A DNA stretch of 64,000 nucleotides from Chrysomallon squamiferum. Its lineage: Eukaryota; Animalia; Mollusca. The stretch lies in NCBI GenBank assembly GCA_012295275.1, contig CM022675.1:13950001-14014000 (forward strand), given 5' to 3'. Below the pieces are notes generated by a model that did no database searches, was not told the DNA's origin, and worked only from the letters and a program-made list of their open reading frames with translations. This document shows, in pieces, positions 5,417 to 61,522 of the stretch. The translations under genes were made by a program, and so were the position numbers. Position 1 is the first letter of the stretch; the number at the start of each line of letters is the position of its first letter.

Positions 5417-6218
5417 ATAGTCTGGAATAGACGAAATGTGTATCTGTATGGCTATCTATTTCAAAAATTCTTGACTTTTGATTAACTAATTAATTCATTC
5501 ATTTATATAATTATTTATTTCAGAACTGTACATGAAGAAAGAATACAAGAGAATTTTCCGTTAAACTTCTGTGACCACTTCAGGAAGAGATCAAGAAAAT
5601 GCCAGAAATTACACAACTAAACAGAGACGAAATGATATACAAACTATATGTGTAATATTAACCAAGCTGAAATCAAGATACGTTAAATAAAATAACGTTG
5701 CAGAGTGTGTGTATCTGTGACAGATATCGGAAAATGCTGTTTGAGAGATATCTCACTGGAGCTGCTGTGTTAGATCACTCGAGTGCAAGGTCAAAGACGC
5801 TGGATGTAGATACGACGTATTTGTAACAACACCAGGCGATGTCGTGTTGTTCAAGGTCGCTCAATGCAAGAAACCACCACGCTGCTGTGATACCCGGATG
5901 TCGTCGTCCTCGTTTCGTGTGGCTGTTTTTTTTTTAATCACAGTTTATTTTATTTAATCTTTCTCTAGAACCCTGATCTGTGTTTCCATGCGGCGTACAT
6001 TTAACGAGTAGAAAAGTTTCTTGCAATTATTTCTAAAATTCCTTCTTTGTTCTGCGGTTATAATTATTTTGACTAACTATCTTTCTGTGATTAACCCTCT
6101 ACCGCGCAGGTATAATTAACCCTTTAACTACAGCGGTGTGTTGTGTGATTCAGTTTGACGTTGTAAAACAAAGACTGGATGTTAATTACACAGCTCATTG
6201 GATTCAGCAACTTTTACA

Positions 6219-15942: not shown

Positions 15943-17342
15943 TCAGTTTTATTACAAACATAATAACAACCTAAGTCAGCATGAAAAACAATATTTTGGT
16001 TGAAATTTCCTTGACATTTGAAATTTCAATTTTGGTGTTTTTTTAGAGAATTTACTCTCACATGTTCACCTGGCTTCCTTATGGGATAATCTTGAATTCA
16101 GAAAAACCCAAATATGTGTGTGTGACCTAATCCAACATCACGATTTAAAAACTAGAACATACGTTGAATTGTAACTTTTAAATTTTTTTTTATTGTTATT
16201 ATGTTGTTTATAAACACATCTATAGAACCAAATGAAATAATAACAATGTATAAGGCTAAGATTTGTATTTTGCAGTTCAGCTAATATGGATGATAATTCA
16301 GAAGTCAATCCTAATCCCAGTGCTCTTGCTTTGCATGGCAACAGTACAGATCCTGGACACCATTTACAGCAGCAAGTGTCAGGTAATTAATAACACAGTA
16401 CGTCTCTACAATGTAGTTTTGATGGGTAGTTCTAAGCAGAAAAAATTATTATTTATATCCCTAACAATGAACTTTTTTAATATATTGTTTAGTGTCAATG
16501 AGTTCTATTCTGACAAAAGACAAAGTTATTACTTATTTCTGTTCCTTTTACTGGCACTTTAAAGTGTGTGCTGACAATTTTAAACTTATAATGCTGTTGG
16601 TGGAAATAAAGAATTAGTTTTGTTTGTATACACACAGTTCTCTGATTTATATTGATAATAAATAAACAGTTCTAAAAGTTACATATCCTGTTTGTTTGAC
16701 ACATGAAAACAAAAACAATATTAATTACTGTTTGATCTCTATTACGACTGTTGTAATTATTCTCGGATTTGTTTGATTTATTTTAATACTGTAAAGTAAT
16801 AATTATTTCTTAGCACCTACAAATAATCAGTTAACAATATTAAACATTTTTTTAATATAGTTATATCTAATAATAACATATTTTAATAATACTATATGCT
16901 GCCATTGTTCTGTATATAGATAAAAAGATTTTGGATAAATTCTGCTTGTGAGTTGCGGATATTTTAACTTTACTTACCATTTTACAGGCATGAACCCAGT
17001 TGTGAAACCAACGACGCCCAATCCCACAAGAAGAGTGTTGTGTATGGAAATAAAGTTAAAACTAGTAAGTCAAAAACTGAAAGTTTTCTTTTCTATCAGA
17101 CTCTGCGATCTGAACAACACACACACACAGACACACACACACATTTCTACACTAACAGATTATTAAACTATTTAAAAGTTTTTCATCATGTTTTTGATGG
17201 TGTGCATACTCCAGTGTTTTTAAGTATCATTATTATCTCCAGTAAATATTGAAATACTGCACAAAGTATCATTATTATCACCAGTAAATATTGAAATAAA
17301 ATGCAAAATATTTATAAAACAACAACAACAATCACAAAACAA

Positions 17343-17378
<36 letters not shown>

Positions 17379-17841
17379 ATTATCAAGAAACAACAACAGT
17401 GGCAGTAGGAGTAGCAGTAATTATAGTAAAGTCAATCACAAAGATATATAATAATAATGTTACACATTTGCTTTTTTATGACTAAGCTGAAGAGTAATTG
17501 TACAGATCACTCTTAATAATTCCTGTTAACTCATCAGAAACATAAATTTACTGGTTTTATTTTTGTATTATTTCAGCAAAAAAACATGGAAGAGCATCCA
17601 ATATTAAAGGTGAATTTTTTTCCTTGCACAGATTAAAACAAAATGTGCATTAATAACAAGATAATCATCTAGTTGCTTTTAAACTTATGATTGATGTTTT
17701 CATTAAATTCTGATGAATGAATATTAAAAACTTCAAATTTGATTCTTACTAAGAAATTATAATGTTAATGTTTATATAGTACAAACAATTATAAAGCCAT
17801 TTATAATAGATTTTAATATTTTTTGTCTTCTTGTGATACAG

Positions 17842-18863
17842 AGTCTGCCAAGTCAGTGATAGACTCAGTTGACACACGTCTCATTGTTGAAACAAGAGCA
17901 AAGAAAAGAGGTCTAACACTTTTGAAGAAGGATGGTGTTGTGATTGTAATAGGAGGTCCAGGCTCAGGAAAGACAACTCTTGCTTGGAGCATGATGAAAC
18001 AGATAGAAGAAGAAGAGAATAGAGAATATTATTTGCTGACTCATCACTCTGAATTCAGTGACATCGATCTGTCTCCAGGTAGAAAATGCATTTTCGTCAT
18101 TGATGACATATTTGGTAAGACTAATCTCATTTCAGATTTTATGTCGTCATGGCAACCAAAATTTTCAAAAATGTGGAGTCTTGTTCAAGATGGTTCTGTT
18201 AAATGTATTATTACCTTACGAAATGAAATATTTGCAAAAAGCAAAACCAGTTTGAAGGAATATGATCTGTTTAAAGAGAATCATCTCCTTGATCTGCAGA
18301 GTGATGACTATTGTCTGAATAAAGATGAAAAGAAGGAAATTTTAAACACTTATCTCAAACAAGAAGATGTTACAATGGGTGAAAAGGACAAAGACATTGT
18401 AATTCAAGAACTATGTACAGAGTTAGGATTCCCTCAGATGTGTGTTTTTTATGTTAAATCAAGTGATGCACAAAAAAGTGGAGTCGAGTTTTTTAGGAAA
18501 CCTGTAGAATATCTCACACAACAGCTGCAAAATATGAGAAGTGACAAATCCTTACAGATCAATTATCTGGTTCTGCTGCTGATTATGTTTAAAAAAGGGA
18601 GTCTCAGTATTGATTTGTTGAACCCATTTGAAAATGACAGTGACAGTGAAATAATGAAATTAGTAAAACAGCTAGAGCGTGTCTGTCCAAGTCTAAAAAA
18701 CACTGGTCTTGAAGACATAAATAAAGCAGCTAACCTTATGTGTGGTACCTATTTGAAGCTTAATGACAGTAAGTACACATTTATTCATCAATCAGTGTTT
18801 GATGCTTTGTTTCTGATGTTTCAGTCAGAGTTTCCAAAGAAAGCAAAAGAATTGCAATGTTGA
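17842..18863 (+). CDS. Open exon encoding a complete nSTAND3-like P-loop NTPase plus helical/winged-helix module
   Basis: Acceptor TACAG at 17841, phase 1. Walker A GGPGSGKTT, Walker B CIFVIDDIFG, sensor-1 CIITLR, GxP motif LGFPQ, and MHD-like FIHQSVFD; these match STAND/nSTAND3 hallmarks. Confidence 0.85.
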
Positions 18864-20166: not shown

Positions 20167-22369
20167 GGTTATAAAACATTATGATTATTATTTTGTATAA
20201 ATATATTCATGTAAAGAATATAATTCACAGAACAACCAGACAAAACTCACCGGCAACAGACACTTTGATTTTATTTAATTGCAAATAAAATAAATTTATT
20301 AATAGTTAATGCATTTGATGCAATTATATTTTTGACAAACAAGTAATTTAAATACTTGTACTGTTGACATTTTTTGTACCATCCCTTTGTTTAACTTGTG
20401 CCAGTTACATTGATTCCTGCCATCCCTTTCACAAATGCTGAGACCACCGAGAAAAAACCACTGTGATGTTGTAATTATTGATGTTGTTTTTACTCAAAAA
20501 TGGACCACTGAGAAAAAAACTCTGGATCTGTGATGTTGTTGTAAAATGTCAACAATGAAGGTAAAACTCCTTTTCTTACAGCTGTGAACTACAAACAGAA
20601 CAAAAAAAATGGAGTGTTGGAATTCTGTTTTACATCTTTTTAAACTAGAAAAATGGAGCTTGTGTTAAAAAACATTAAAGTAAAATAAAATAGTGTCAAC
20701 AGAACAAAATAGTTTTGTATTTACAGATCATGGAGCTGATCCTAGTTTAACAGACAAATATAAGAATTCTGTTTTACAACTGGCAGCTTGAACTTGGAAA
20801 TACAGAAACTGTGACAGCACTGATTCAAAAAAGTGTTGATGTAAATATTAAAAACAGCAGAGGTGAAACTCCACTTCTTACAGCTATATATCATTATAGA
20901 CATCCACATCATTGATTCAATAATGATAGCAAGTGGGAAATAGTTTTGTATGTAATGGAACATGGAGCTGTAACCAATTTTGCAGACAGATGTAATAATT
21001 TTTTTTACACCTAGCAGCTACTGATGGAAATATAGAAATTGTGAGAGCACTGATTGAAAAAGGTGTTGATATAAATATTAAAAACAAGGAAGGTGAAACA
21101 TCTATTCTTACAGCTGTGAAGTATGAACACAATAAACTGGTTTTGTATTTATTGGAACATGGAGCTGATATAACATATAGATATAAGAATTCTGTTTTAC
21201 AAATAACATCTAAACATGAAAATAAAGACATTGTGAAATCACTAATTGAAAAAGATTTTGATATAAATATTATAAACAGTGGAGGTGAGACTCCTCTTCT
21301 TACAGCTCTGAATTATGATTGTTGTTAGTGGCATTCATACATGAATGATGAACACTCCAAAGCAGTTTTCTGTTTCTGAAACATGGGGCTGATCCTTAAA
21401 TATAAAATTTAATAAAATACTGGTGTAAATTACTAATTTATTTTAAAATTAATATGAATATACCAAACATAGTATATCTTTCTCCTTTTTAATTCAAATA
21501 TTATTATTATTATTATTGCATATGTATCCAATTAATGTTGAAAGATTCTTTTTTTTTTTTTTTTTTGAACATTTACGTTTATTATTTTTGTTTTTCAGAA
21601 TTGTTTTTATATGTTTTTTTTCTCTTTTGCTCACTTTTATTTAATTTCATTTAGTTTAATTTTATTTCATTTTTTATACCCTTTTTTCTAACATTAATTT
21701 ACAATTAATGTAGATTAGTTGATTTAAATGATTATACGAGGGAAGTAAATGCAAATCATTTAATACAGTGGTGCATTGTACTTCAAACTATAAAGTGAAG
21801 AAACATTCAGTCTGGAGTTTGAATGATGTGTGTATGTTAAACTGCATGCACTGTAAATAACTATGAAGTTTATTTCTTTTAACTTTGTCATGAACTGAAA
21901 ACGAAACTCAGATTTTTAGTTGTTTTATTATAACATTCATAATTGTTTCATTTAAGGAATAACCACCAAATTTTGGATTGACAGAAACATTATTATTATT
22001 CATTAATTAATTATTTATTTATGTTTTATTGTAAGATTTAAGTTTAGTGTTTTTGATTATTTGTACTAATAAGAATATGAATATACGTGTGTGTTATAAT
22101 TTTTCTATAAAGAGTTATGTAAAGAATAAATGTACTAACACTACTGAAAATAAAATAAATTTTACTTACTATTTACACTTATATGAAAGTGGAATTAAAT
22201 AAGAAATGTACAAATTAAGTAGATTTCATTATTACTACTATCATTTTTTTTATACATTCTTAATGTGTGTGTGTTAGCTAAAGTGTAAATATGGTAAAAT
22301 GATTGAAAATAAACTATTTTAATCTGCAACAACATGTATTTTGATTTTTTCTAAAATTTCACAATTCAA

Positions 22370-25932: not shown

Positions 25933-28826
25933 ATGGATGATGAAAAGGAGAATTTAGAAGTCCATTCTAAAACCACAGCTGTTTCTGACAACACCACAGT
26001 TCCATTCACTTGTAACTCAGATACTGTACAGCCTCAAGTGTCAGGTATGACATCTTGTGAAGGTAATTAATAACACAGTATTTTTCTACAATGTAGTTTA
26101 CTGTTTTGATGGGCAGATCTAAACATACATTTTTATTATTAATATCTGTAACAGTGCAGTTTTTCTTTCAATGTATTGTTTAATGTCAAACAGTTTTACT
26201 ATGACAAAGGACAAAGTTATTATTTATTTCTGTTGCTTTTATTTTCACTTTAAAGTGTGTAATGACAATTTACAGGTTATAACACTATTGCAACAAGTAG
26301 AAAAATTACTCTCGTTTGTATGCACACACTTTTCTGATTTATACTGATAATAAATTAATAATTTAAAGATTTTTATATCCTTTTTCTTTGACATATGAAA
26401 ACTGTAGAACAAGACACACTGATTACTGTTTGATTACCATCATGGCCTTTGATATTATTCTTGTATTTATTTCATTTACTTTAATACTGTAAAGTAGTAC
26501 TTATTTCTTAACACCTAAACATAATGAGTTAACAATAATAAACACATTCTTTTTAAACATATATACATACATTCAGTGATAAGATTTTGTTAATAATGTA
26601 CATAGATAAAAAATTTTTTTTAGTAGAAAATCTGTTTGTAATTTGTGGATTTATAGGTTTTCATTTACTGTTTTAGAGATCCAACAAGAGCACAGTCAGT
26701 GACAGAAAGAAAGTAAATATCAGCACAGTTCAGAATTACCAACTATCTCATGACAAGAATGCTGTATTTGGTAGATAACAGAACAGCACAGCCTGGTAAT
26801 CATTAGTACTTTTCTGTCAGATTCTGTGATCTGAACAACATGCATGCACATGTTGAGACAGACACACACACACACACATTTTCACTAACAAGTTATTAAA
26901 TTTTACATTGTAGTTTTGATGGTGTGCATACCTTAGTGTTTTTAAAAGATCACCATAAATACTGAAATACTAAACAAATTATCATTATAATCTCCAGTCA
27001 AGGTTGAAATATCAAACAGATTATCATTATTATCTCTTATAAATATTAAAATGCTATGCAAAGTGTCATCATTATCTCTAGTAAATATTGAAATACTGTG
27101 CAAAGTGTATATAAGACAACAGCAATCACTAAACAATCAGAGCAATAAATAAATAAATAAATAACAATATCTTTTAGCAGCATGAACATGAGGTTCTGTT
27201 CACACAGTGAATTTTCTCGTTGACCAGAGATATAATGATACAGACGAAAACAACTGGAAGAAAAGTCAAGTACTGATATTTAACACAGCAGATGTTGTTC
27301 AGTCTACTCGATAAAGGAGCTGATCCTAATACTCGTGTAGCTGTTAAAAGGATGTTGGTTGATTGTTTTAACATTGGCAATAAAAACTGATTATAATCTG
27401 ATTCAGTGCTCAACAGAGACCAGATTGAATCTATTGCCATCTGACTCACCTCTCCACATTTCAGTTCTGCATGATGACTTAGATTTGGTGAAATCATTGG
27501 TGAAAAGAAATGCTGATATTAATGCAATGAACAGTGAGGGAAACATACAAACAGAACAAAGTAGTTTTGTGTTTACTGGAACATGAAGCTGACCCTAATT
27601 TAACACAGTGATAACAGTTCTGTTCTACCAACAGGAGCTAAACAGTGAAATATAGAAATCGTCACAGGTCTGATAGAAAAAGGTGTTCATGAACTCACAG
27701 CACTGAGTAAGAAAGGTGTTGATGTAAATACATTAAACAGTAGATGTAAAACTCCTCTTTTTAAAGCCTTGAATTGTCAACAGAACAAAGTACTTTTGTA
27801 TTTGCTGGAACATGGGGCTGATCCAAATTTAACACAGTGATAACAGTTCTGTTCTACCAACAGGAGCTAAACAGTGAAATATAGAAATCGTCACAGGTCT
27901 GATAGAAAAAGGTGTTCATGAACTCACAGCACTGAGTAAGAAAGGTGTTGATGTAAATACATTAAACAGTAGATGTAAAACTCCTCTTCTTAAAGCCTTG
28001 AATTGTCAACAGAACAAAGTACTTTTGTATTTGCTGGAACATATGGCTGATCCTAATTTAACAGACAGAGGTAACAGTTCTGTTTTACACATATCAGCTG
28101 AACATAGAAACAATAGAAATTGTGACAGCACTGAGAAAAAAGGTGCTGATGTAAATGTTTTAAACAGTACAGGTAAAATTCCTCCTTTTACAGCTTGTAA
28201 ACTACAAAGAGAACACAGTAATTCTGTATTTACAGGAACATGGAGCAGATCCTAATTTAACCAGCAATGAAAATAGTTCTGCTTTACACCTTGCTGCAAA
28301 ATGTGGGAAAATAGAAATTGTCTAAAACTCATAGAAAAAGATGCTAATGAAATTTTAAAAACAATGAAACACCTCTTCTTACAGCTATGAACTACAGATG
28401 GAGCTGATCCTAATTTAACAGATAGATATAAGAATTGTGTTTTAACTGTAGCAGCTACACATGAAACAATAGAAATTTCAACAGCACTGATTAAAAAATG
28501 TGCTGATGTAAATATTATAAAGACTAGAGGTGAAACTCCTCTTCATACACTGTGAACTATAAACAAAGCAAAATTGTTTATTATTTACTAGAACATGGAG
28601 TTGATCCTAAAATAACAGACAGTGAAAACAATTCTGTTTTACACATAGCTCCTAAATTAGGGAATAAACAGAAATTGTGACAACTCTGATTAAAAAGGTG
28701 TTAATATAAATATTAAGAACAATGAAAGTGAAATTTGTCTTCCTACAGCTCTGAATTATCAGTGGCATTCATACATGAAGGTTCCAAAGGACATTTTGTA
28801 TTTCTGGAACATGGAGCTGATCCTTA
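25933..28826 (+). pseudogene. Copy B: NLR-like paralog with the NTPase deleted and frameshifted ankyrin repeats
   Basis: Exon 2 MDDEKENLEVHSKTTAVS.. (25933-26062) and exon 3 remnant ~26679-26775. Intron-3 sequence joins at ~27170 to sequence homologous to copy A 19500. Ankyrin remnants carry many stops and a 229-bp internal tandem duplication. Confidence 0.85.
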
Positions 28827-32195: not shown

Positions 32196-35100
32196 ATGGG
32201 TGAGAAAAATGAAGATTCAGAAGTCAACTCTAAAACAATAGTTGTTTGTCTGTCTGACAACACCACAGTTACATCTACTTGTAACTCAGATAATGGACAC
32301 CATTTACAGCTGCAAGTGTCATGTATCACATCTTTTGAAGGTAATTAATAACACAGTAGTTTTCTACAATGTAGTTTACTATTTTGAGTGGGGAGATCTA
32401 AACAGAGAATATTTTTAGTTACATCTGTAACAATGCAGTTTTTCAATATATTGGGGGGGGGGTTCTCCAAAAATTCTTCTTGTAAGTTGTGAATTTAAAT
32501 AATTTCATTACTGTTTCACAGATCCTTCAAGAAGACAGTCAGAGGTAGAATAAAATAGAAATTGCAATATAGTTAACAAATACTACACCGTATCGCAGTG
32601 CAATAAAGCTGTGTTAGGAAATGAAGTTGGGAATACTCATAAGTTTTCTTTTCGTTGTAAGTTTGATTGATAACCGTCTACACAACCCAGTAATCATTAG
32701 TACTTTTCTATCAGACACAGTGACCTGAGCCACACACACACACACACACACACAGACAGACACTCAGGTTTATGATTTATGAACTGAACTGTGTGCACAA
32801 ACATTTTCATAGAAAATTAAACAGCTATCACTGAACTACACACACACACACACACACACACAGACTGTTAGACTGAATTAGAGTATCGTCTTAATACAAG
32901 TCATTAAAAAAATTTATATACCTATTGAAGCACTATGCAATATATTAATATTATCACAAATAAATAGTAAAATAATATAAATGTATCATTATTATCACCA
33001 GCAAACATAAACTATTATACAAAGTATATAGAACAACAACAATTAGAACCGAATCAAAACAATAAATAAATAAATATCATCAAGAAACAGTGACAATGGC
33101 AGTAGTTTGACAATAGTAGTAATTACAGTAAAATCAACGACAAAAATGTAATAATAATGTTACAAGCTTGCCCTTTTATGACTAAACTGCTGATTAATTT
33201 ACTCACCAAAAACATAAACGTACTGGTTTTATTTTTATATTATTTCAGCAAAGACTGATAGAAGAATTTCAAGTTTTAAAGGTACTTGTTTTTTTCCTTG
33301 TATAGTTTAGAACAAATGTGCATTAATAATGAGATAATGATCTAGTTGCTTTTAATCTTACAAGCTCTGTTATGACTAAACTGAAAAGTAATTGAACAAA
33401 TCACTGTTATTAATAATTCTTGTTTGCTTCACGGTAATAGAAACTTCCTGGCTTTATTTCTACATTATCTCAGAAAAGGCTGATGGAAGAATATCCAAAA
33501 TTAAAGGTAAATCTTTTTTTCTCATCTAGTTTTGAAAAATATGCATTACTCTTAGAAGCTCGCAGTGTTATGATAAACTGCAGATTAATTGCAAACATCA
33601 CTCTGTTAATAATTCCTGTTTACTTATCAGTAATAGAAACTCACTGGTTTTATTTTTACATTTTTCCAGAAAAGACTGATGGAACAGCATCCAATATTAA
33701 AAGTGCTTGTATAGTCGCTTTAAATCTTATTGATATTTTCATTAAATTCTGATGAACAAATATTATGGCAAGAGACTATAGCATTATTTTAAGAACTTGA
33801 AATCCTGATTTATATAACAAAACATTTTCAAAACAGTTTATAATAGATCTTAATTTTTTAACTTGTTTTGATACAGTTTCTACCAGGTCAAGGATAAACT
33901 CTGTTGACTGGAGGCTCTGTGTTGAAATAAGAGCTGAGAAAAGAGGTGTTATACTTCTGAAAAAGAATGATGTTGTGATTATAGTAGAATGTGCAGGTAA
34001 AGGGAAGACAATTCTACCTTTGTGCATGATGAAACCATTAGAAGAAGAAGAGAACAGAGATTCTTACTTGCTGAAATTTGATTTCTTTACAGAGAATCAT
34101 CTCCTTGACTTGCAGAATGATGACTGTTGTCTGAATCACGATTAAAAGTATAGAATTCTAAACAAATATCTCAAACAAAAAAATGTCACAATGGACTGTC
34201 ATTTGTAGATCATGTACAGAGTTAGGATTCCCTCAGGTATGTGTCTATTATGTTAATTCAAGTGATGCACAAAAAAGAGGAGTTGAGTTTTTTCAGAAAC
34301 CTGTAGAATATCTCAGACAACAGCTAGAAACTATGAAAAGTGATGAATCCTTACAGATCAATTGTTCTATTGGTCATAATATTTCAGCAAGGCAGGTTCA
34401 GTATTGATTTGTTGAACCCATTTGAAAATGATAATGACAGTAACATAATGAATTTAAAAAAACTGCTAGAGCGTGTCTGTCAAAGTCTAAAAGACACCGA
34501 TCTTGCAGATATAAACAGAGCAGCTGATGTAATGTGTGGTACCAATTTGAAGTGTAATGACAATAATTACACATTTATACATCAGTCAGTGTTTGACTGT
34601 TCGTTTCTGATGTTTTCATCAAAGTTTCCAAAGAAAGCATCAAAGTTACTAGAAGTGTGTCCTGTCTCCATGTTGTTAGAATATGTTGTGACGCCTGGAG
34701 TGTCTAACAAAAGTCACAATGACTGTGAAACCTGACTGCTTTGATTTTCTTGCTCGCAGATTTACTGACTTGCTGGCATCAAGCAATGCCAGAAAAATTA
34801 TTTCACATCCATCACTGAAAAATGAAGAGTTTGTAAAGTATATCATAGAGGAAAAAAACTTTTGTTATGGTAAATTGTCTGAAATATTGAATCAGAAACT
34901 AAAGTACAGGTACATGACTGTAGAACAGAATTTGGTAAAAACGTCCGTATGGAAACTGAAGAAATTGTACATTTCTGTGACAGTTATTAAGTGTATTCAA
35001 TAGTGAAAGTAATATGTATTAATTCATCATTTGTTGCAAGTGAATGTGTTGTGAAATGACTAAGAGCTTTGTCGAGGTTTTCTTGCATCAAATCTGTGTA

Positions 35101-38100
35101 AAATACAATACCTATATCAGAAAAATCAACTTTTGGATATTTCTTGTTTATTTGGTGATAAAAAATATTGTGAAAATATTCCTACAATCAGATGTTATTC
35201 CAATTTTTGATACATACAGTTTAGTTGCATGTTCAAAAACAGATATCCTTACAATACCCCAAAACTGTTACCGTATAAAAATGTGAATTTGAGTATGTAT
35301 TCCTGGTTGTTACCACTTTCAATTTATTCATCTAACATGAACATTGCCTGTTTCTTGGCTGACATTATAAATACTCAGAAAGACAAAAGTGAAATAAAGA
35401 AAAAAGTTGTGAAACTGTTATTGGTTAGGTTCCATCCACATGTACATCACACAATTGTTCACAGATACTTCGCAAAATCAGTAATTGATAAAGAAAATGA
35501 TACGAGCCATATTCTTAAGAAACTGGTTGCCATTGAAATAATAAACAAAATTGAAAACACTGCAGTCATTGCTGCTGGTCAGAGGAATTCAGGTGTTATT
35601 AAAGAAATAGTAAAACTGAAACCTGACTGTTTAAACGATGTGTGAATGACAGTGAATTTTCTCATTGAACAGAGACGAAATGATAAAGATGAGAACAACT
35701 GGAAGACAAGTCAACTACTGAAAAGCTATGATGTTTAACAGTGCAGATGTTGTTCAGTGTCTCCTTGATAATGAAGCTCTTAATAGGACATTAAGTGGTT
35801 TGAATGGAAAACTAGATTAAAATTGTTGGACTGCGACTCGCCTGTCCACATTTCAGCTCTGCGCGGTGATTTAGATTTGTTGAAATCACTAGTAAAAAGA
35901 AATGCTGATATCAACGCAGTGAACACTGAGAGGAAAACTGCACTTCATAAAGCTGTAAGTCATTGTGGATTTTACACAAAAGAATTACTTTTGTTTTTAC
36001 TAGAAAATGGAGCTGATGTTAACATCACAGATGATGATAGAATTCAGCTTTACACTTAGCAGCTGAAGTTAGATATATGGATATTATAACAACATTGATT
36101 GAAAAGGGTGTTGAGGTAAACAGTACTAACTATGAAGGTAAAATTTCTCTTTTTACTGCTCTGAATAATACTGAAAAACAACCATTTATGAGTGATGAAC
36201 AACGGAGAGCACCGATTGAGAACAGTGGTGGTAAAACTGCTTTCTTTCCAGTTGCAAGTCATTTGCATTTGCAGAAGAGGTCAAACAGCTTCTGTTACAG
36301 CTGTGAACTCTAAACAGAAGAAAGTAGTTTTGTATCTGCTGGAACATGGAGTTGATCCTAACATAACAGACAGAGATAACAATTCTGTTTTACAGATGGC
36401 AGCAAAAACATGGAAATATAGACACTGTTTCAGCATTGATGTTAAATATTACAAACAATGAACGTAAAACTCCTCTACTTACAGCTGTGAACTACAATCA
36501 GAACAAAGTAGTTTTCAGTTTACTGGAACATTGAGCAGATCCTAATTTAATAGAAAGTAAAAACAATTCTACTTTACACCTAGCATCAAAACTGCGAAGT
36601 ATAGAAATTGTGACAGTACTGATTGAAAAAGGTGGTAAAGTAAATAGTTAAACAAGGAAGGCGACATTCCTCTTCATACAGCTCTAAACTGTTGTCAGTA
36701 GCAGTCACATAGTAATGATAAACTTTGTGAAGTAGTAATATATTTAGTGGAATATGAAGATGATCTTAATTTAAGAGACAGTGGTAACAGTTCTATTTTG
36801 CACATAGCAGCGAAACATGGAACTATAAAAATTGTCACAGCATTGACTAATAAAGTTATAGATGTAAATATTATAAATAGTACAGGTGAAACTCCTCTTC
36901 ATACAGCTGTGAAGTACAAACAGGACAAAGTATTTTTGCATTTGCTGGGACACGGAGCTGATCCTATTTTAACAGACAGTGATAACAATTCTGCTTTAGT
37001 CATAGCAGCTGATTACGGAAATATAGACATTGTGAGAGCACTGATTGAGAAAGGTGTTGATATAAATCTTAAAACCAGTGATGATGAAACTCCTCTGCTT
37101 AGAACTTTAAGGGATTATGAATATTGTCAAAAGGAGTCTCTTAAAGATGAACGTTGCAAAATGGTTTTGTGTTTACTGGAACATGGAATTGATCCTCATG
37201 TGACAGACAAACATAAGAATTGTGCTTTACACAGAGCAGTGTTACAAGGAAATATAGAAACTGTGAGAGCACTCATTGGTAAAGGTGTTGATATAAATCT
37301 TAAAAACAGTGACGGTGATACTGCTTTGCTTAGAACTTTAAGGGATTATGAATAATGTGATAATGAGTTTCTTAAAGATGAACGTTGCAAAGTGGTTTTG
37401 TATTTACTGCAACATGGAGCTGATCCTAATTTAACAGACAGCGATAACAATTCTATTTGACACATAGGAGCTAAACAGGGAATTATAGAAATTGTGAGAG
37501 CACTGACTGAAATAGGTATTGATCCAAATCTTAAAAACAGTAGTGGTGAAAATGCTGTTTCTACAGCTTTAATTCATTATAAATATATATATTTTTTTAC
37601 TAATCAACACTTGAAAATAGTTTTGTATTTACTGGAAAATGGAACTGATCCTAATTTAACAGTCTTGTATAGCAATTCTCCTTTACATCTAGCAGCTGAA
37701 AATACAGGGAAATATAGAAACGGTGAGAGCACTGACTGAAAAAGGTGTTGATATAAATCTTAAAAACAGTAGTGGTGAAACTGCTCTCCTTACAATTTTA
37801 AATGATTATGGATATTTCCATTCTGAATCTGTAAAATAGGACGTCGGAAAGTAGTTTTGTATTTATTGCAACATGGAGCTGATCCTCTTTTAACAGATAA
37901 TGATAACAATTCTTCTTCACGTATAGCAGCTAAAAAGGAACAAATAGAAATTGTGAGAGCACTGATTGAAAAAGGAGCTGACGTAAACCTTAAAAACAAT
38001 GAAGGTTAAACTCCTCTGCTTACAGCTGTAAAATATGACAAGAACACTGCAAGCTTCTATTTGCTTAAAACAGACAGACAGAGCAATTCTGTTTTATACA

Positions 38101-38265
38101 TAGCAGCTAAACGTAGAGACATAGATACTGTGACAGCACTTGTTGAGGAAGGTGCTGATGTAAATGTTGTCAATGCTTTGGGAAAACTCTTCTCAGGATA
38201 GCTAAAGATGAATTTTGTAGAAAAAATCGTTTCCTTTCTACTGAATCATGGTGCAACATATAAAT
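32196..38265 (+). pseudogene. Copy C: most complete architecture (N-terminal exons, 3 micro-exons, degenerate nSTAND3 NTPase, helical region, long ankyrin array)
   Basis: Exon 2 32196-32340; exon 3 32522-32638 (stop, donor mutated to AT); micro-exons 33249-33281, 33474-33506, 33670-33702. NTPase remnant from ~33876 (VECAGKGKT, Walker B deleted, LGFPQ, FIHQSVFD). Ankyrin ORFs 35823-36059, 36747-37355, 37494-37739. Confidence 0.88.
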
Positions 38266-38560
38266 TAACTGGTATATTTTATTAACAAAAGTTAGTTACT
38301 ACATGATGGATAAAAACAGAATTTGACTGGTCGCATTTATAAGTAAAATAAATCTCATAATGATGGAGAAATTTCTTATAGCTTTATTACAAATATAAAA
38401 TAACTAATTTCTGCGCCCTGCTCTTAACAAATAAATATAGAAAACAATTTGTACCTGTATTTTCCATTGATTTTCTTGTTATTAATTTTCATTCAGTATG
38501 ACAGTCAGTACTCTTTTGAATTTAAATTAAATACAAACAAAAAATTATAATACAACATAC

Positions 38561-44436: not shown

Positions 44437-45232
44437 ATGGGTGATGAAAAAGAGGATTCAGGAGTTTATTCTAAAACCACAGCTGTCTCTACAGGTAACT
44501 CAGATGCTGTAAACCAGTCGCAGCCACAAATGTCTAGTATCATTTCTTGTGAAGGTAATTAATAACAAGGTCTTTTTCTACAACGTAGTTTATTATTTTG
44601 ATGGGCAGCTCTAAATTTTTCATTATGTTGTTTAATGTGAATTGGTTCTACTCGGACAAAGGACAAAGTTATTATTTATTTTTGTTGCTTTTTCTTTCAC
44701 TTTAAAGTGTGTACTGACAATTTCAAAGCTGTAATGCTATTGGTGGAAATAAATAATTATTATGGTCTGTACACACACAGTTCTCTAATTTATGCTGATA
44801 ATAAATTAACAATTCAAAACGTTTTATATTCTGTTTGTTTTATACATGAAAACTGTAAAACACACTAAGTAGTTTTGTATTTATTGGAACATCGAGCTGA
44901 TGTTAACTTAACAGACAGGGATAACAATTCTGTTTTACATCTTGCAGCTAAGTATGGAAAAAACAAATTGTGACAGCACTGACTGAAAAAGGTGTTGCTG
45001 TAAATATTAGAAACACTGAGGGTAAAACTCCTCTTTTTACAGCTGTGAATTCTCAACAGAACAAAGTAGTTTTGTATTTGCTGGAATATGGAGCTGATCC
45101 AAATTTAACAGATAGTGATAACAATTCTGTTTTACACATAGCAGCTAAACATGGGAATATAGAAATTGTGACAGCATTGATTAAAAAAGTGTTGATGTAA
45201 ATGTTATAAACAGTAGAGGTGAAACTGCTCTC
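44437..45232 (+). pseudogene. Copy D: exon 2 plus ~3-4 ankyrin repeats; exon 3 through NTPase deleted
   Basis: MGDEKEDSGVYSKTTAVS..CEG|GT (44437-44554). Intron 2 sequence breaks at ~44865 into ankyrin sequence (ORF 44970-45200 GKTPLFTAVNSQQNKVVLYLLEYGADPN). Confidence 0.85.
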
Positions 45233-47280: not shown

Positions 47281-50200
47281 ATGGATGATGAAAAAGAGAA
47301 TTTAGAAGTCCATTCTAAAACCACAGCTGTTTCTGACAACACCACAGTTCCATTCACTTGTAACTCAGATACTGTACAGCCTCAAGTGTCATGTATGACA
47401 TCTTGTGAAGGTAATTAATAAAACAGTATTTTTCTACAGTGTAGTTTACTGTTTTGATGGGCAGATCTAAACATACAAATTTATTATTAATATCTGTAAT
47501 AGTGCACCTTTTTTTTCAGTGTATTGTTTAATGTCAAACAGTTCTACTCTGACAAAGGACAAAGTTATTATTTATTTCTGTAGCTTTTATTTTCACTTTA
47601 AAATGTGTAATGACAATTTACAGGTTATAACACTATTGCAGCAAGTAGAAAAATTAGTTTGGTGTGTACACACACATTTGTCTGATTTATACTGATAATA
47701 AATTAATAATTTAAAGATTTTTATGTGCTTTTTGTTTGACATATGAAGACGGTAGAACAAAACACACTAATTACTGTTTGATCATGGCCATTGATATTAT
47801 TCTTGTATTTTTTTCATTTATTTTAATACTGTAAAGTAGTAGTTATTTCTTAGCACCTAAACATAATGAGTTAACAATATTAAACATTCTTTTTAAACAT
47901 ATATACTTAAGTTCAGTGATTAGATTTTGTTAATAATATATGCTGCAAATGTTTGTGTATAGAGATAATCTGTTTGTAATTTGTGGATTTATAGGTTTTC
48001 ATTTACTGTTTTAGAGATGCAACAAGAACACAGTCAGTGACAGAAAGAAAGTAAATATCAGCACAGTTCAGAATTACCACACACTATCTCATAACAAGAA
48101 TGCTGTATTTGGTAGATAACAGAACAGCACAGCCCGGTAATCATTAGTACTTTTCTGTCAGATTGTGATCTGAACAACATGCACATTTTCATTAACAAGT
48201 TATTAAACTTTACATTGTAGTTTTGATGGTGTGCATACCTTAGTGTTTTTAAAAGATCATCATAAATACTGAAATACTTCACAAATTATTGTTTTAATCT
48301 CCAGTCAGGGTTGAAATATCACACAAATTATTATCTCTCATAAATATTAAAATGCTATGCAAAGTGTCATCATTATCTCTAGTAAATATTGAAATACTGT
48401 GCAAAGTGTATATAAGACAACAAAAATCACTAAACAATCAGAGCAATAAATAAATAAATACACAATATCTTTTAGCAGCATCAACATGAGGTTCTGTTCA
48501 CACAGTGAATTTTCTTGTTGACCAGAGATATAATGATACAGATGAGAACAACTGGAAGAAAAGTCAAGTACTGAAAGTAGCATTGATATTTAACACAGCA
48601 GATGTTGTTCACTACTTGATAAAGGAGCTGATCCTAATACTTGTGTAGCTGTTGAAAGGATGTTGGTTGATTGTTTTAACATTGGCAATAAAAACTGATT
48701 ATAATCTGATTCAGTGCTCAACAGAGACCAGATTGAATCTATTGCCATCTGACTCACCTCTCCGCATTTCAGTTCTGCATGATGACTTAGAATTGGTGAA
48801 ATCATTGGTGAAAAGAAAGGCTGATATTAATGCAATGAACAGTGAGGGAAACATACAAACAGAACAAAGTAGTTTTGTATTTACTGGAACATGAAGCTGA
48901 TCCTAATTTAACACAGTGATAACAGTTCTGTTCTACCAACAGGAACTAAACAGTGAAATATAGAAATCGTCACAGGTCTGATAGAAAAAGGTGTTCATGA
49001 ACTCACAGCACTGAGTAAGAAAGGTGTTGATGTAAATACATTAAACAGTAGATGTAAAACTCCTCTTCTTAAAGCCTTGAATTGTCAACAGAACAAAGTA
49101 CTTTTGTATTTGCTGGAACATGTGGCTGATCCTAATTTAACACAGTGATAACAGTTCTGTTCTACCAACAGGAGCTAAACAGTGAAATATTGAAATCGTC
49201 ACAGGTCTGATAGAAAAAGGTGTTCATGAACTCACAGCACTGAGTAAGAAAGGTGTTGATGTAAATACATTAAACAGTAGATGTAAAACTCCTCTTCTTA
49301 AAGCCTTGAATTGTCTACAGAACAAAGTACTTTTGTATTGGAACATGGGGCTGATCCTAATTTAACAGACAGAGGTAACAGTTCTGTTTTACACATATCA
49401 GCTGAACATACAAACAATAGAAATTGTGACAGCACTGAGTAGAAAAGGTGTTGATGTAAATATTTTAAACAGTACAGGTAAAATTCCTCCTCTTACAGCT
49501 TGTGAACTACAAAGAGAACACAGTAATTCTGTATTTACAGGAACATGGAGCAGATCCTAATTTAACCAACAATGAAAATAGTTCTGCTTTACACCTAGCT
49601 GCAAAATGTGGGAAAATAGAAATTGTCTAAAACTCATAGAAAAAGTTGCTGATGAAATTTTAAAAACAATGAAACACCTCTTCTTACAGCTATGAACTAC
49701 AGATGGAGCTGATCCTAATTTAAGAGATAGATATAAGAATTGTGTTTTAATGATAGCAGCTACACATCAAACAATAGAAATGTCGACAGCACTTATTAAA
49801 AAATGTGCTGATGTAAATATTATAAAGACTAGAGGTGAAACTCCTCTTCATACACTGTGAACTATAAACAAAGCAAAATTGTTTATTATTTACTAGAACA
49901 TGGAGCTGATCCTAATTTAACAGACAGCAAAAAATATTCTGTTTTACACATAGCTTCTAAATTAGGGAATAAACAGAAATTGTGACAACCCTGATTAAAA
50001 AGGTGTTGATGTAAATATTAAAAAGAATGAAGGTAAAACTACAGCTATGAACTAGAAACAGAAGAAACTAGTTTCAGTTTACTGGAATATGAATTTGATC
50101 CTAATTTAGCAGACAAATATAACAATTCTGTTTTTCATCTAGCAGCGAAACATGAAAACCTAGAAATTGTAATATCACTGATTAAAAAGGTGTTAATAAA

Positions 50201-50325
50201 TATTAAGAACATTGGAGGTGAAATTTGTCTTCCTACAGCTCTGAAATTATTGTTGTGGCATTCATACATGAGTGATGAAGGTCCCAAAGGACTTTTTCTG
50301 TATCTGGAACATGGAGCTGATCATT
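47281..50325 (+). pseudogene. Copy E: NTPase-less paralog, duplicate of copy B
   Basis: ATG 47281 MDDEKENLEVHSK..; junction at ~48466; frameshifted ankyrin repeats, with ~190 bp more ankyrin sequence than B near 50010-50200. Confidence 0.85.
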
Positions 50326-51347: not shown

Positions 51348-52851
51348 CACTATGGATTTCTTATGATTTATTGCACCCACATAATTATATAAAATACAGT
51401 TATACTAACTGATACATTATTAACATACGTGTATGTGTTATAATTTTCTATAAAGTGTTAAATAAAGAATAAACGTGCTAATACTATTGAAAATAAAATA
51501 AATATTACTTACTATTTACACTAATAAGAATAATATTTATATGAAAGTGGAATTAAATAAGAAATGCACAAATTAAGTAGATTTCATTATTACTACTATC
51601 CTTTTTCTATACATTCGTAATGTGTATGTGTTAGATAAAGTGTAAGTACAGTAGTGCTTCATAATTTACACGCAACAAAATGTAAAGGAAGTTCTTGCAA
51701 AATACACGTTTCTTATAGAATAAAATGAAGAACTACTGCAGAAGCTTTTTCTTGAACTTTATCATTACATATTTCGATTCGACACATAAATATTATGTTT
51801 TCTTAAACGCTTTCCGTTTGTAAATTACGCATTTGTTCATTGTGAGAAAATATGTTATTCCATAAAATTTGTAATCACTATAATTAACAGAATGGTGTCA
51901 GAAGTTATTTCTCGCTCACTGCCTTGTTTCAGGATTCGACTGTTTCTTTTACCAAAAAACTCAACAAAAGAACATGATTGCTTATTTCCTCGCTTACGCG
52001 GTACAGGTAATAAGGAAGATCGATGAACTCTGCTTGTTCCCTGCCCTGTCTCGGTGCCATAGAAAGTGTGTTACACTTTCGCTTCCACCATAGTCTGCAA
52101 ATCGTTTTCCTGAAGTTGAAATGGTCATTTTCGTCTGTCTCATAGTTCGTTCAACCGTCTTGTCCTCGTCATTTTCACTTTCAAAGCCTCAAATAAATAT
52201 TCTTATCTCAAACAGTCGAAATGTACACAATCAAATTCTGAAAACATTGTTTGCTTATATTTTTTTTTATCTAGGTCGATAGAAATACGCGATGGTATAC
52301 ATTTGTTTATTAAATCATTTTCACTGAACAAATCAGATCAACAGCTAGGGACGTGACCTTCCCGTTTCTACCACGTGATCAAAATAGTTTACACTGCTAA
52401 GCATGAAAGGGTCTGCGTTCTAATCAAATTAAAGAGTTGAAAATATCAAAAAAATAATAAAAATTAAATGGCAATTGAAATAAAATAAAAATAAAAATCA
52501 ACAATACAAATAAAAAAACACCCGAAACAAACCAGTTATTTTCAGCCGTACAAGCCCAGAATAACAAAAAAAAAAAAAAAAAAAATAAAAATAAAAATAA
52601 GAAGAAGCAAAGAAGGAAAAATAAATAAAATAAAATAAGTAAATGAATATGCAAATGAAAATAAACACCAAGGTGCCTCCACACAAAAGAATTACTTGTA
52701 CACAAAAATTTAAGATGTGTAATAAACACATTAGGTATGAAGACCAAGGAAACTTTGAAATTAGTCTCACTGTTTAGTTATCTGTAGTGCATTTCTGTGT
52801 TTTCAAGTTATAATGGTGAGAGATTTACTGGCTTATCTGAGTCAGGTTGAA

Positions 52852-53118
52852 CTATATCAATAATTTATACTAGAAGGAAAATCTAGATAAGAGTGACAGC
52901 ACTTACAATTTGTGTGTCAATGTATGTTTTTATGTATTGTGTCTGTGTGTGCATGTGCATCATTCCATGTTGGTAATCTCACAGTGAATGACAGAACAGT
53001 ACTAATGACTACTGTGATGTGTATCATGTTATTTGTTAAACAGGTAGAGAAAAGAAAAGTTTTAGTTTTTAACTTGCAAGTTTTTATAACTTCATTTCCA
53101 AACACAACATTTCTGTTA
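52852..53118 (-). pseudogene. Inverted fragment of NLR-like exon 3 plus intron
   Basis: Reverse complement aligns with 54668-54930 and encodes NRNVVFGNEVIKT. Confidence 0.8.
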
Positions 53119-53126
53119 ATGGACTA

Positions 53127-54157: not shown

Positions 54158-54275
54158 ATGGATGACAGAAAAGAGAGTTAAACATTTTCATCTAATGTCA
54201 CAGAGGTTTCTTCCTCAGAAATTATAACAAAATTATTTATATCTGTAATAACGAAGTCTTTCAATTCTTGTTTAA

Positions 54276-54308
<33 letters not shown>

Positions 54309-54708
54309 TATTAAGCTTTGAATTGACAGTTTTTTGTTATGTATTACTAATAAATTAACAATCAAAATATTTTTTCTAGCTTTTGTTTCGAAATACAAAC
54401 TTGTTACTGTTTGATTGTATAATAAGTTAACGATATTAAACACATTTTATAAACATAAACTTTTATTGTTATATTCAGAAATACTGTTAGGACAGACTAT
54501 TAATAGTGTTCAGTGTCATATTCTATATGTAGATAAAATTGGTTTTAGAAATTATTTTTGTAAATTATGAATTTAAGTAATTTCTTTTACTCAGTTGGAA
54601 GAACACAACCAGTGGTAGAACATAAATGTAAATATCAGCACAGTTCAGAATTACCAGGCGTGTCTAATAACAGGAATGTTGTGTTTGGAAATCAAGTTAT
54701 TAAAACCA
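54158..54708 (+). pseudogene. Copy F: 5' fragment (exon 2 with an early stop; intact 114-nt exon 3)
   Basis: TACAG acceptor, ATG 54158 MDDRKES*. Exon 54595-54708 (TCAG..GTAAGT) encodes VGRTQPVVEHKCKYQHSSELPGVSNNRNVVFGNQVIKT. No downstream NTPase seen. Confidence 0.75.
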
Positions 54709-55042: not shown

Positions 55043-55453
55043 GAACAATAACAGTGCATAAGTAACAACAGTAATAACAAACAAATAGTTGCAGTTTTGA
55101 TAATTATTATATTTAGGATAAAACAAAAATGTTACTTTGTATAACTATTCTGATGATTAGTACATTTACTACAAAAACTAAGATAAAACTTTAGAATAAC
55201 TATTCTGATCATTATTAGATTGCTGATATACTAATATATATATATAATGTATGGTAGTATAGCTATTGTTATAATTAAATTGACTAGAAAACTAAGATAT
55301 AACTTAGAATAACTATTGTGATAATTATTATATTTAGTAGAAAACTAAGGTATACGTTAATATAACTATTGTAATAGTAAGGTAATAAATTATTGATACT
55401 TATTGTTATTTTTCCTCTATGTCCATATTTCATGCAATCTTTCTGTTCTTTGA

Positions 55454-55735
55454 TGTGTTTCAGTGTACACTCTCTAGGGTTGGGATGGAGTATAATAAAT
55501 GTAATGTTTGGTATGTTTCAGTATAAATTATCTAGGGTAGGGGTGGAGCATGATAAAAGTAATGTTTGGTATGTTTCAGTTTATATTCTTTAGGGTTGGG
55601 GAGAGTTTCATAAATATAATGTTTGGTATGTTTCAGTGTACATTCTCTAGGGTTGGGGTGCAGTATGATAAAAGTAATGTTTGGTATGTTTCAGTGTATA
55701 TTCTGTAGGGTTGAGATGTCATGTTTGGCATGTTT
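55454..55735. repeat. ~58-bp minisatellite, 4-5 copies (CTAGGGTTGGGGTGGAGTATGATAAAAGTAATGTTTGGTATGTTTCAGTGTACATT)
   Basis: Direct reading of the tandem units. Confidence 0.85.
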
Positions 55736-57178: not shown

Positions 57179-57199
57179 TTAATAGCTCTTCAGGTACTT

Positions 57200-57380
57200 A
57201 GATCGCATGTTAATCTTGTTCACGGTTGAGTTATTAACAAGGAGAATTTGAAACCTTTGCAGGTACACTCATTGTTAGGTAATTGAAAAAATGTCGTTAA
57301 GAATGTCGTTACACGAAGATACTGATACTGCCTGGTGTTATCTGTAGGTCAGATTTCGAAGTTTAATTTTAAACATCAGT

Positions 57381-57411
<31 letters not shown>

Positions 57412-60400: not shown

Positions 60401-61491
60401 TACACAAACATAAAAATAATAACAAAATTAAAATATAAAAAAATGTAGAAAGTTTATGATAAGCTATTGGTTAAATATAATCATCATTAATAAAGTAACA
60501 TGTTCATTTCTGTATTGACACAATTATAATCTAATATTGAGCTGTAATTTAAAATGGCTAAATGATTCAACTTATTACAGTTATATTGATTCGTTGAAAT
60601 TTTCTTGATTTTGTCTTTTGTTTTCTGTTGTGTTGTTGGAACTTTATTATTAATACTCACTTTTCTCTGTTCTTACATTTAAAAAAAAAACAAGCTCACT
60701 GGTCACGGTCACTGCTTCTTTAGGATTAGACAACGTTACATGATCTAGACATGTATCTCCTTGAAATACGTAACTTGAGTTTTGTCACGTAGGCATGAAT
60801 TAGCAAAGAACACAGTTTATTGTAATGCAAATGGATATAGTGTATTTTCTCACTGAAATTGTTTTGACAAAAGGTCATGAAAGATTCATGTTAGGTTGCT
60901 AAATTTCTTGTTTTCATTAAATTGAGAATTTAAAGCAATAGTACGATATTAATTAATTGGTATCGTCAAATACTGATGCTCATGTAGTTCAGTGTATTTG
61001 GGTATAGAAAAAATAAATAAAAAAATATATAAATAAAAAATTAAAATTTTAATAAAAATAAAATAGAAAAAAATGTAGAAAATTTATGATAAACTATCGG
61101 TTAAGTATATTTTCAAGATTTAGTCACCATTAATAAAGTAACATGTTAATTTCTATATTTTTACAATTATAATCTAATACTGTAATTGAAAAAGGCTAAA
61201 TGGATATTACTTATTACAGTTATATTGATTCGTTGATATATTCTTGTTTTTTGTCTTTTGTTTTCTGTTGCGCATGTGGAACTTTTATTTTTGAGTGTAA
61301 TCCTAAATAATACAAAAATTAAATGTAACTGTTTTCTTTATCAACTCACTCTTCTCGACAGTAACATGTTCATGCATGTTCATTTTGTTGTGTCGCTGTG
61401 CATTTTTAATTTAGAAATGTAATCTTTTTAAAGATCTAATACAGCAGTTAAATATCAAAGACGTTACCAGACAATAAGTACATTAAGTACA

Positions 61492-61522
<31 letters not shown>

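What the first reader, a model, noticed from the sequence alone, without database searches (positions are those of the whole stretch)
54595..54708. Exon 3 encodes a conserved RHIM-like (amyloid-type) motif N-terminal to the STAND NTPase
Exon 3 diverges between copies but its 3' end keeps a pattern: NRNVVFGNQV (F, ~54669-54698), NRNVVFGNEV (inverted, ~53090-53117), KKSVVYGNKV (A, 17028-17057), CNKAVLGNEV (C, ~32599-32628), KNAVFG (B/E). This resembles the RHIM/cRHIM core (I/V-x-I/V/F-G followed by N), in an otherwise short low-complexity N-terminus. Fungal and bacterial NLRs use such short N-terminal amyloid motifs instead of a folded effector. Inference: a metazoan amyloid-motif/nSTAND3/ANK signalling receptor. 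The core lacks the canonical Gln, so this is tentative.
Basis: partly seen in the sequence, partly recalled or inferred. Interest (0 to 1): 0.8.

Follow-up and report, generated by a model that had tools for sequence, protein, structure and literature searches.

The report
Snail immune sensor's amyloid-like exon
This small exon encodes a short motif resembling the RHIM amyloid switch of human cell-death proteins; a neighbouring copy is spliced in that frame onto an NLR-type ATPase gene, so the family likely signals by seeding amyloid, but the flagged copy itself is likely an orphan relic in a decaying gene cluster.

Summary
The window holds a decaying tandem cluster of gastropod nSTAND3-ankyrin (NLR-like) genes. 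RNA contigs from three runs of one study splice copy A's ATG exon, motif exon, linker exon and NTPase exon. They carry one extra base upstream of the motif that puts VVYGN in frame, so the frame objection fails. The closest relatives (Gigantopelta aegis) carry RHIM-spaced motifs in the same slot in 5 of 7 N-termini, one with VQFG. A matrix built from those five ranks copy F first of 46,054 window 16-mers. Other relatives put a caspase or HEPN domain there. Limits: copy F has no NTPase downstream and a broken ATG exon. The spliced copy A has the most eroded motif and stops before its ankyrins. Pfam, PDB and Atlas searches gave no RHIM hit, selection within the window is not shown, and amyloid formation and a partner are untested. 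RHIM-NACHT-repeat proteins are known from amphioxus; I found no paper on the nSTAND3/mollusc version. The scan noted the same family earlier on other pieces of this genome. New variant of a known kind.

The parts
54595..54708 (+). Copy F motif exon, 114 nt, phase 1-1, AG/GT intact; the motif runs 54660-54698. No NTPase or ankyrin follows up to 64000. Its 5' half appears shifted by compensating indels against the frame of B/E/C.
   Evidence: PSSM rank 1
54158..54226 (+). Remnant resembling the family's ATG exon upstream of F: stop at codon 8, no GT donor at the expected place
   Evidence: translation; weak blastn match to copies C and E
52847..53124 (-). Inverted partial duplicate of F: 3' end of the exon plus intron. 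Motif 53117-53088, preceded by a stop and a microsatellite; acceptor absent, donor reads GC.
   Evidence: (84% over 280 bp)
16286..16382 (+). Copy A ATG exon (coding part, 97 nt, ends phase 1), low-complexity N-terminus
   Evidence: joint 16382->16988 in X1, X2, X4
16988..17064 (+). Copy A motif exon: 77 nt in the window, 78 nt in all four public runs (extra G behind 17015); VVYGN core at 17037-17051
17577..17609 (+). Copy A 33-nt linker exon, phase 1-1
   Evidence: joints
17842..18863 (+). Copy A nSTAND3 NTPase with following helical and winged-helix-like part; frame ends in a stop at codon 410 of the spliced frame
   Evidence: Pfam PF20720 6.6e-26; model pLDDT 93, STAND/AAA+ matches
20692..21400 (+). 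Copy A ankyrin remnants, broken (longest open stretch 109 aa)
25933..28750 (+). Copy B: ATG exon 25933-26062, truncated motif exon ~26679-26772, NTPase deleted, ankyrin remnants
   Evidence: the same deletion appears as joint 17296->19501 in X5
32196..38267 (+). Copy C: ATG exon 32196-32340; motif exon 32522-32638 (best fit to RIPK1 spacing, but in-frame stop and donor GT changed to AT); frameshifted NTPase 33855-34775; ankyrin array
44437..45231 (+). Copy D: ATG exon 44437-44554 followed directly by ankyrin remnants; motif exon and NTPase absent
47281..50264 (+). Copy E (about 90% like B): ATG exon 47281-47410, truncated motif exon ~48017-48113, NTPase deleted, ankyrin remnants

Best explanation
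The flagged exon is a likely orphaned copy of a small phase-1 exon that, in copy A, is spliced in the motif frame onto an nSTAND3 NTPase, and the RHIM-like motif it encodes likely serves intact family members as an amyloid-seeding effector. Shown: exon structure, splicing and frame in copy A; STAND-type fold; RHIM-spaced motifs in the same slot of the closest relatives; exchange of that slot for caspase or HEPN domains in other relatives. Inferred mechanism: a ligand binds the ankyrin array, the NTPase exchanges nucleotide and oligomerises, and the clustered motifs form a cross-beta seed. That seed would convert a partner with a matching motif, most plausibly a RIPK1-like kinase/death-domain protein or a paralog, leading to NF-kB signalling or cell death. 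This cluster itself is birth-and-death debris: F is likely non-functional, and A would at most make a 409-residue protein lacking the ankyrin sensor.
For: Three GT..AG joints in 3 of 3 RNA runs laid and none in X5. Extra base upstream of the motif in 4 of 4 runs; with it the frame is open to codon 410, with VVYG at residue 50 and Walker A at 107. A's NTPase lies in a 99-support clade with nine G. aegis proteins (quick tree; names). Five of the 7 with an N-terminus show the RIPK1 spacing (P0013 with VQFG, P0011 VHVG, P0014 TNVG, P0035 VQIP, P0003 VTIQ). The spacing is taken from a mutational scan of RIPK1/3: tetrad+G occurs in 5 of 76 N-termini vs 0.89 expected (3/1000 shuffles), triad+G in 10 of 76 vs 3.5 (1/1000). 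F ranks 1st under the G. aegis matrix. Caspase and HEPN_DZIP3 domains occupy the same slot in relatives. Precedent: RHIM-NACHT-repeat in amphioxus, and RHIMs sit where death-fold domains usually do (PMC4262963). Gln-less VxxG cRHIMs form functional amyloid (PMC13506858). Mollusc RIPK1 has a conserved RHIM (PMC12119088).
Against: No Pfam RHIM hit for any of 18 stretches. No PDB hit for an 11-sequence motif profile. No usable Atlas hit. Unbiased Gibbs sampling was barely above shuffles, 250 vs 194-235. The pattern without the Gly is not enriched, 15 vs 16.8. Copy A, the only copy with splicing evidence, ranks only 279 of 46,054, lacks both first-strand hydrophobic residues and carries two lysines in the loop. 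No signal of selection on the motif among window copies. All RNA evidence is contigs from one study. The enrichment counts include near-duplicate proteins (P0105/P0128, P0087/P0093) and hits inside folded domains.
Confidence: 0.6

Rival explanations
1. The motif descends from a RHIM-like element but no longer makes amyloid in this lineage. It is an eroding remnant or a short ordinary beta-strand contact, and the Gln loss and copy-A drift reflect lost function.
For: Gln absent in all six window copies; A lacks the first strand; intron better conserved than motif between A and F; every copy damaged; no library hit.
Against: Other paralogs of this organism seen as loose ends keep the pattern, one with the RIPK-like G-x-x-N-x-hydrophobic tail (table 7; my translation). 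Paralog RNA contigs match the motif half of the exon (5-8 differences in 49 nt) while their 5' half does not align. Two G. aegis paralogs, P0010 and P0012, also keep a Gln-less core.
Confidence: 0.25
2. Copy F is not dead but is a cassette exon of a longer gene whose NTPase lies beyond the window, as in paralogs that carry several motif exons in tandem.
For: F keeps AG/GT, a frame-preserving 114 nt, no stop and the best motif score. X4 contigs show a motif exon spliced to the start of a second motif-type exon (table 7).
Against: The ATG-exon remnant upstream has a stop at codon 8 and no donor. No linker exon, NTPase or ankyrin lies in the 9.3 kb downstream, whereas A's NTPase follows within 0.8 kb. 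The 5' half of F appears shifted against the family frame.
Confidence: 0.1
3. The RHIM likeness is chance or convergence: Asn/Val/Gly-rich strings are common in AT-rich low-complexity N-termini, and the reader's pattern is only shared DNA ancestry.
For: Weak Gibbs result; a matrix from five non-Gigantopelta mollusc motifs ranks F only 14th and a microsatellite-derived Asn run 1st; I chose the training sites after seeing the window motif.
Against: F ranks 1st in all leave-one-out matrices and 0 of 60 shuffled matrices reach its score; same position before the NTPase within one clade; literature-derived spacing enriched in N-termini.
Confidence: 0.05

Closest known systems
Branchiostoma RHIM-NACHT-repeat protein BF82280 (Kajava et al. 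2014, PMC4262963; parts 1-2 of 4 and passages read)
   Same: Animal STAND receptor with an N-terminal RHIM-type motif, central NTPase and C-terminal repeats; motif sits where death-fold domains usually are; function only predicted.
   Different: Here the NTPase is nSTAND3, not NACHT; the repeats are ankyrins; the host is a gastropod; the core lacks Gln in the window copies; the motif has its own phase-1 exon.
Fungal NWD2/HET-S and PP-motif NLRs; bacterial Bell/BASS3-NLR pairs (bioRxiv 10.1101/2020.01.06.895854 and PMC7889193, passages read)
   Same: Short putative amyloid motif replaces a folded effector at the N-terminus of a tripartite STAND receptor; 'all-in-one' relatives carry an enzyme instead.
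   Different: Those have an adjacent effector gene with the matching motif and a G-phi-Q-phi-G core. No effector gene was found in this window, and amyloid is untested.
RIPK1/RIPK3 RHIM (bioRxiv 10.64898/2026.02.19.706818 and PMC12119088, passages read)
   Same: Spacing of the aliphatic tetrad plus Gly is met in copy C (Ala at the third position), partly in F and E, and fully in G. aegis P0013.
   Different: Core (V/I)-Q-(V/I/L/C)-G is not met in any window copy. The N-x-hydrophobic tail follows the Gly directly, two residues earlier than in RIPK1/3 (their tail spacing is recalled). The motif is on a receptor, not a kinase.
Arthropod cRHIM (VxxG) of PGRP-LC/LE, Imd, shrimp SRB2 (PMC13506858, passages read)
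   Same: VxxG core met in A, F and the inverted copy; invertebrate immune context.
   Different: cRHIM proteins are membrane or peptidoglycan receptors and adaptors, not STAND ATPases; their amyloid is shown experimentally.
Bacterial Avs5 (Sir2-nSTAND3-repeats) (bioRxiv 10.1101/2025.07.08.663546, passages read)
   Same: Same Pfam NTPase family and tripartite layout; EfAvs5 is Foldseek rank 4.
   Different: Avs5 uses a folded Sir2 NADase effector and TPR-type sensors against phage.

Membership tests
RHIM (mammalian type) | Core tetrad (V/I)-Q-(V/I/L/C)-G | tested here: not met
   Window cores are VVYG, AVFG (B, E), AVLG, VVFG (F, inverted). Relative P0013 has VQFG, a natural RIPK3 variant per PMC12119088.
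RHIM (mammalian type) | Aliphatic tetrad spacing phi-x-phi-x5-phi-x-phi-G (RIPK1 531/533/539/541/542) | tested here: inconclusive
   C: 3 of 4 plus Ala; F: 3 of 4; E: 2 of 4 plus Ala; A: 2 of 4, first strand lost. Enriched among relatives, 5 of 76 vs 0.89.
RHIM (mammalian type) | Match to the Pfam RHIM model or to solved RHIM sequences | tested here: not met
   No RHIM family among hits for 18 stretches; 0 PDB hits. HMMER filters drop weak short matches, and even the VQFG relative was missed, so this test is weak.
RHIM / cRHIM | Forms and cross-seeds amyloid; needed for signalling | not testable with these tools
   Needs bench work; ArchCandy is not available.
cRHIM | VxxG core | tested here: met
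   A, F and inverted copy; B, C, E have Ala first; definition from PMC13506858.
nSTAND3 / STAND (NLR-like) receptor | nSTAND3 NTPase with Walker A/B and following helical/winged-helix part | tested here: met
   PF20720 91 bits vs cutoff 27.2; model pLDDT 93; Foldseek hits include NRC1 NB-ARC (TM 0.53), Avs5, CED-4, SAMD9, NLRP7 among AAA+ proteins.
nSTAND3 / STAND (NLR-like) receptor | Intact C-terminal sensor repeats in one reading frame | tested here: not met
   Ankyrin arrays present but broken in all copies; A stops at codon 410. Met in G. aegis relatives.
Amyloid-signalling NLR system (NWD2/HET-S type) | Motif translated N-terminal to the NTPase | tested here: met
   Copy A only; not met for F, which has no NTPase behind it.
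Amyloid-signalling NLR system (NWD2/HET-S type) | Separate effector protein carrying the matching motif | tested here: inconclusive
   None in the window (top hits); a protein search with the F exon found no candidate (insensitive); no genome is held.

The most novel reading that the evidence does not exclude
Molluscs run a large, lineage-expanded class of NLR-like nSTAND3-ankyrin sensors that signal through exon-encoded RHIM-like amyloid motifs. The phase-1 cassette exon is duplicated, swapped and diversified, losing the Gln in this lineage, to create separate seeding channels. That would be an animal counterpart of fungal and bacterial NLR amyloid signalling, interchangeable with caspase and HEPN effectors.
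Probability: 0.4. Interest if true: 0.8.

Novelty: new variant of a known kind. Interest (0 to 1): 0.5.

Why it matters
No animal NLR-type receptor that signals through its own amyloid motif appears as tested in the papers I read; the amphioxus case is a prediction, and a review lists the range of animal signalling amyloids as open (PMC7889193, passage). A mollusc family with named, intact members (G. aegis XP_041355392.1, XP_041355986.1, XP_041355391.1) and transcript-supported exon use makes this directly testable with short peptides. It would extend amyloid signalling to a new STAND clade and phylum. The flagged copy itself matters little: it is a marker of the family, not a working gene.

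Tried and rejected
No genome is held, so no genome-wide paralog or effector scan was possible. Pfam scan of 18 motif stretches at E<=10 gave no RHIM family. A profile of 11 hand-picked relative motifs against PDB gave 0 hits. Gibbs motif discovery on 31 N-termini: best 250 against 194-235 for three shuffled sets, with an unstable register, so inconclusive. ESM Atlas: nothing at or above 0.8 for the F exon, nothing usable for P0011 40-86. Protein search with the F exon: no candidate. Sequence search of the NTPase against PDB: nothing under E 0.025. pN/pS among window copies: too few sites and mixed. The idea that the extra RNA base lies in the A-run of the linker exon, which would put the motif out of frame, was tested and rejected: the base lies behind 17015, upstream of the motif. 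Transcription of F was not tested; both read-laying runs went to copy A. Complex prediction was not run, since filaments are outside its reliable range. The careful tree did not finish; the quick tree is used. Sequence look-up among earlier scan findings returned nothing.

Full report
Observation. The F exon is 54595-54708 with AG/GT ends, 114 nt, phase 1 at both ends. The window is 29% G+C eukaryotic DNA. The best protein relatives are from the snail Gigantopelta aegis (43-46% identity), then Haliotis, so the host is inferred to be a related gastropod. No whole genome is held.

The cluster. Self-comparison shows five tandem gene copies, A to E, between about 11 and 52 kb, plus fragment F and its inverted partial duplicate. 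The family layout is ATG exon, motif exon, 33-nt linker exon, then a long exon with an nSTAND3 NTPase (PF20720, E 6.6e-26) and ankyrin repeats. The NTPase region folds confidently (pLDDT 93). Its matches are STAND and other AAA+ ATPases, including the NRC1 NB-ARC domain, Avs5, CED-4, SAMD9 and NLRP7. Only A and C retain NTPase sequence. B and E lack it and lose the end of the motif exon; D lacks both. C has a stop in the motif exon, a lost donor and a frameshifted NTPase. F has an ATG-exon remnant with a stop at codon 8 and no donor, and nothing of the family follows it up to 64000. So the title is true of the family and of copy A, but not of the copy at the given coordinates.

Is the motif frame used? 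Five public runs hold copy A, four on record as RNA, from two studies in all; I laid four of them. All three RNA runs laid (one study, contigs only) show the joints 16382-16988, 17064-17577 and 17609-17842, each GT..AG; run X5 shows none. The window's motif exon is 77 nt, one short of frame. All four runs carry an extra G behind 17015, upstream of the motif. With a placeholder there, the frame from ATG 16286 is open to codon 410, with VVYG at residue 50 and Walker A at 107; the window allele stops at codon 75. Whether any allele reads on into the ankyrins is unresolved. The window copy is broken there, and the RNA contigs are short and mixed with paralogs.

Is it RHIM-like? A search of cluster representatives gave 1,213 relatives at E<=0.001, of which the best 150 were listed. 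In a quick tree of 53 rows, A's NTPase falls in a 99-support clade with nine G. aegis proteins (names). Left out of the tree were P0006-P0009, P0034 and all ids above P0048 except eight; the careful search did not finish. Two of the nine are annotated with little or no N-terminus. Five of the other seven show the spacing of the RIPK1 aliphatic tetrad before the NTPase, with cores VQFG (P0013), VHVG, TNVG, VQIP and VTIQ. The remaining two have a Gln-less core with spacing one residue shorter. The spacing is from a mutational scan of RIPK1/3 (bioRxiv 10.64898/2026.02.19.706818, passages). Among the 76 of 154 mapped relatives with at least 30 N-terminal residues, five patterns were tested on the last 100 residues. 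Canonical core: 3 vs 0.55 expected (15 of 1000 shuffles reach it). Tetrad+G: 5 vs 0.89 (3/1000). Triad+G: 10 vs 3.5 (1/1000). Relaxed triad+G: 14 vs 6.0 (2/1000). Tetrad without G: 15 vs 16.8 (740/1000). These counts include near-duplicates and some hits inside folded domains. A matrix from the five G. aegis sites, with no window sequence in it, ranks F 1st of 46,054 stop-free 16-mers, C 89th and A 279th; a matrix from five other mollusc sites ranks F 14th. F stays 1st in all five leave-one-out matrices, and 0 of 60 column-shuffled matrices reach its score. On 10 columns E, B, C and A rank 41, 173, 191 and 871 of 65,941. I chose the training sites after seeing the window motif, so some circularity remains. 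Loose ends from other paralogs of the same organism translate, in the frame fixed by the shared donor, to RNVVLGDQV (3 contigs) and NVLIGARNN (1 contig), both in X5 (my translation). Four X4 contigs continue from the donor into what looks like the start of a second motif-type exon (consensus agreement 0.73), which suggests tandem motifs in some paralogs. Other relatives carry a caspase, HEPN_DZIP3 or DUF4559 domain in the same slot: 4 of 12 scanned, chosen for visible N-terminal domains.

Evidence against. No RHIM family appeared for any of 18 stretches in Pfam, including the VQFG relative. PDB and the Atlas gave nothing. Unbiased motif discovery was inconclusive. None of the window copies has the Gln. 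Copy A, the only one with splicing evidence, has lost the first-strand hydrophobic residues. No partner was found.

Mechanism. Most likely (0.6), intact members act as NLR-like sensors. Inferred: ankyrins bind a ligand, the NTPase oligomerises, and the clustered N-terminal motifs nucleate a cross-beta seed that recruits a motif-bearing partner. A RIPK1-like protein is a candidate, since zebra mussel RIPK1 has a conserved RHIM that it needs for full NF-kB activation (PMC12119088, passages). Gln-less VxxG motifs form functional amyloid in arthropods (PMC13506858, passages). Rivals: eroded non-amyloid remnant (0.25), F as a live cassette exon of a longer gene (0.1), chance likeness (0.05). Taken apart: homology to the RHIM-spaced motifs of relatives about 0.85, amyloid function in intact members about 0.55-0.6, F non-functional about 0.85.

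What is known. RHIM-NACHT-repeat architecture in amphioxus was described by Kajava et al. (PMC4262963; parts 1-2 of 4 and passages; Figure 1 and supplements not seen, and they may list further invertebrate proteins). NLR-linked amyloid motifs are established in fungi and bacteria (passages). Searches for nSTAND3 with RHIM gave 0 papers. nSTAND3 with ankyrin gave two versions of one fungal study (listing only). nSTAND3 alone gave 5, four listed, none on molluscs by title. RHIM with NLR, STAND and bivalve gave 3, one listed. 'Novel STAND NTPase' with mollusc gave one paper, which has no RHIM mention in its main text. Searches listed nothing on this family by title or abstract start. The library lacks most subscription papers, including, as I recall, the one that defined nSTAND3. 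The scan's own notes record the same family on two other pieces of this genome; these are unchecked AI notes, seen after my reading was fixed, and are not counted as support.

Verdict. Observation confirmed, interpretation partly supported, new variant of a known kind. Interest 0.5: the family is a good, testable lead, while the flagged copy is a relic.

Noticed in passing
window 6186-7631 (+): Intact single-exon rhodopsin-family GPCR ORF of 481 aa stop to stop (7tm_1, E 2.3e-44), just upstream of the cluster and unrelated to it.
   Followed up: partly
window 17015: All four public runs have one more base than the window here: either a private null allele or an indel error in the assembly. Other breaks in this cluster may be of the same kind.
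   Followed up: partly
window ~33221-33705: Copy C has three tandem matches to the 33-nt linker exon and its flank.
   Followed up: no
table 7, run X4, behind 17064: Contigs run from the motif-exon donor into sequence like the start of another motif exon (25 of 30 bases match copy E by eye): some paralogs likely carry tandem motif exons.
   Followed up: no
window 17842-18863: Hundreds of contigs at 85-95% identity lie on the NTPase in each run (225-706 laid), pointing to a large paralog family elsewhere in the genome.
   Followed up: no
window 16286-18863: If the stop after the NTPase holds in expressed alleles, copy A would make a 409-aa motif+NTPase protein with no sensor repeats, a possible decoy or unregulated form.
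   Followed up: partly
proteins P0154, P0069, P0051, P0082 (Potamilus, Solemya, Haliotis): Distant mollusc nSTAND3 proteins also show RHIM-like strings before the NTPase (cores VEIG, TQIG, IQLG, VQAVG), so the pairing may be mollusc-wide.
   Followed up: partly
protein P0005 (Haliotis rufescens): Caspase-nSTAND3-ankyrin 'all-in-one' receptor in the same family.
   Followed up: no
window 55449-55713 and 57190-63700: Short tandem repeats of about 57 bp and dispersed 200-800 bp repeats downstream of F, with no match to the gene family.
   Followed up: no
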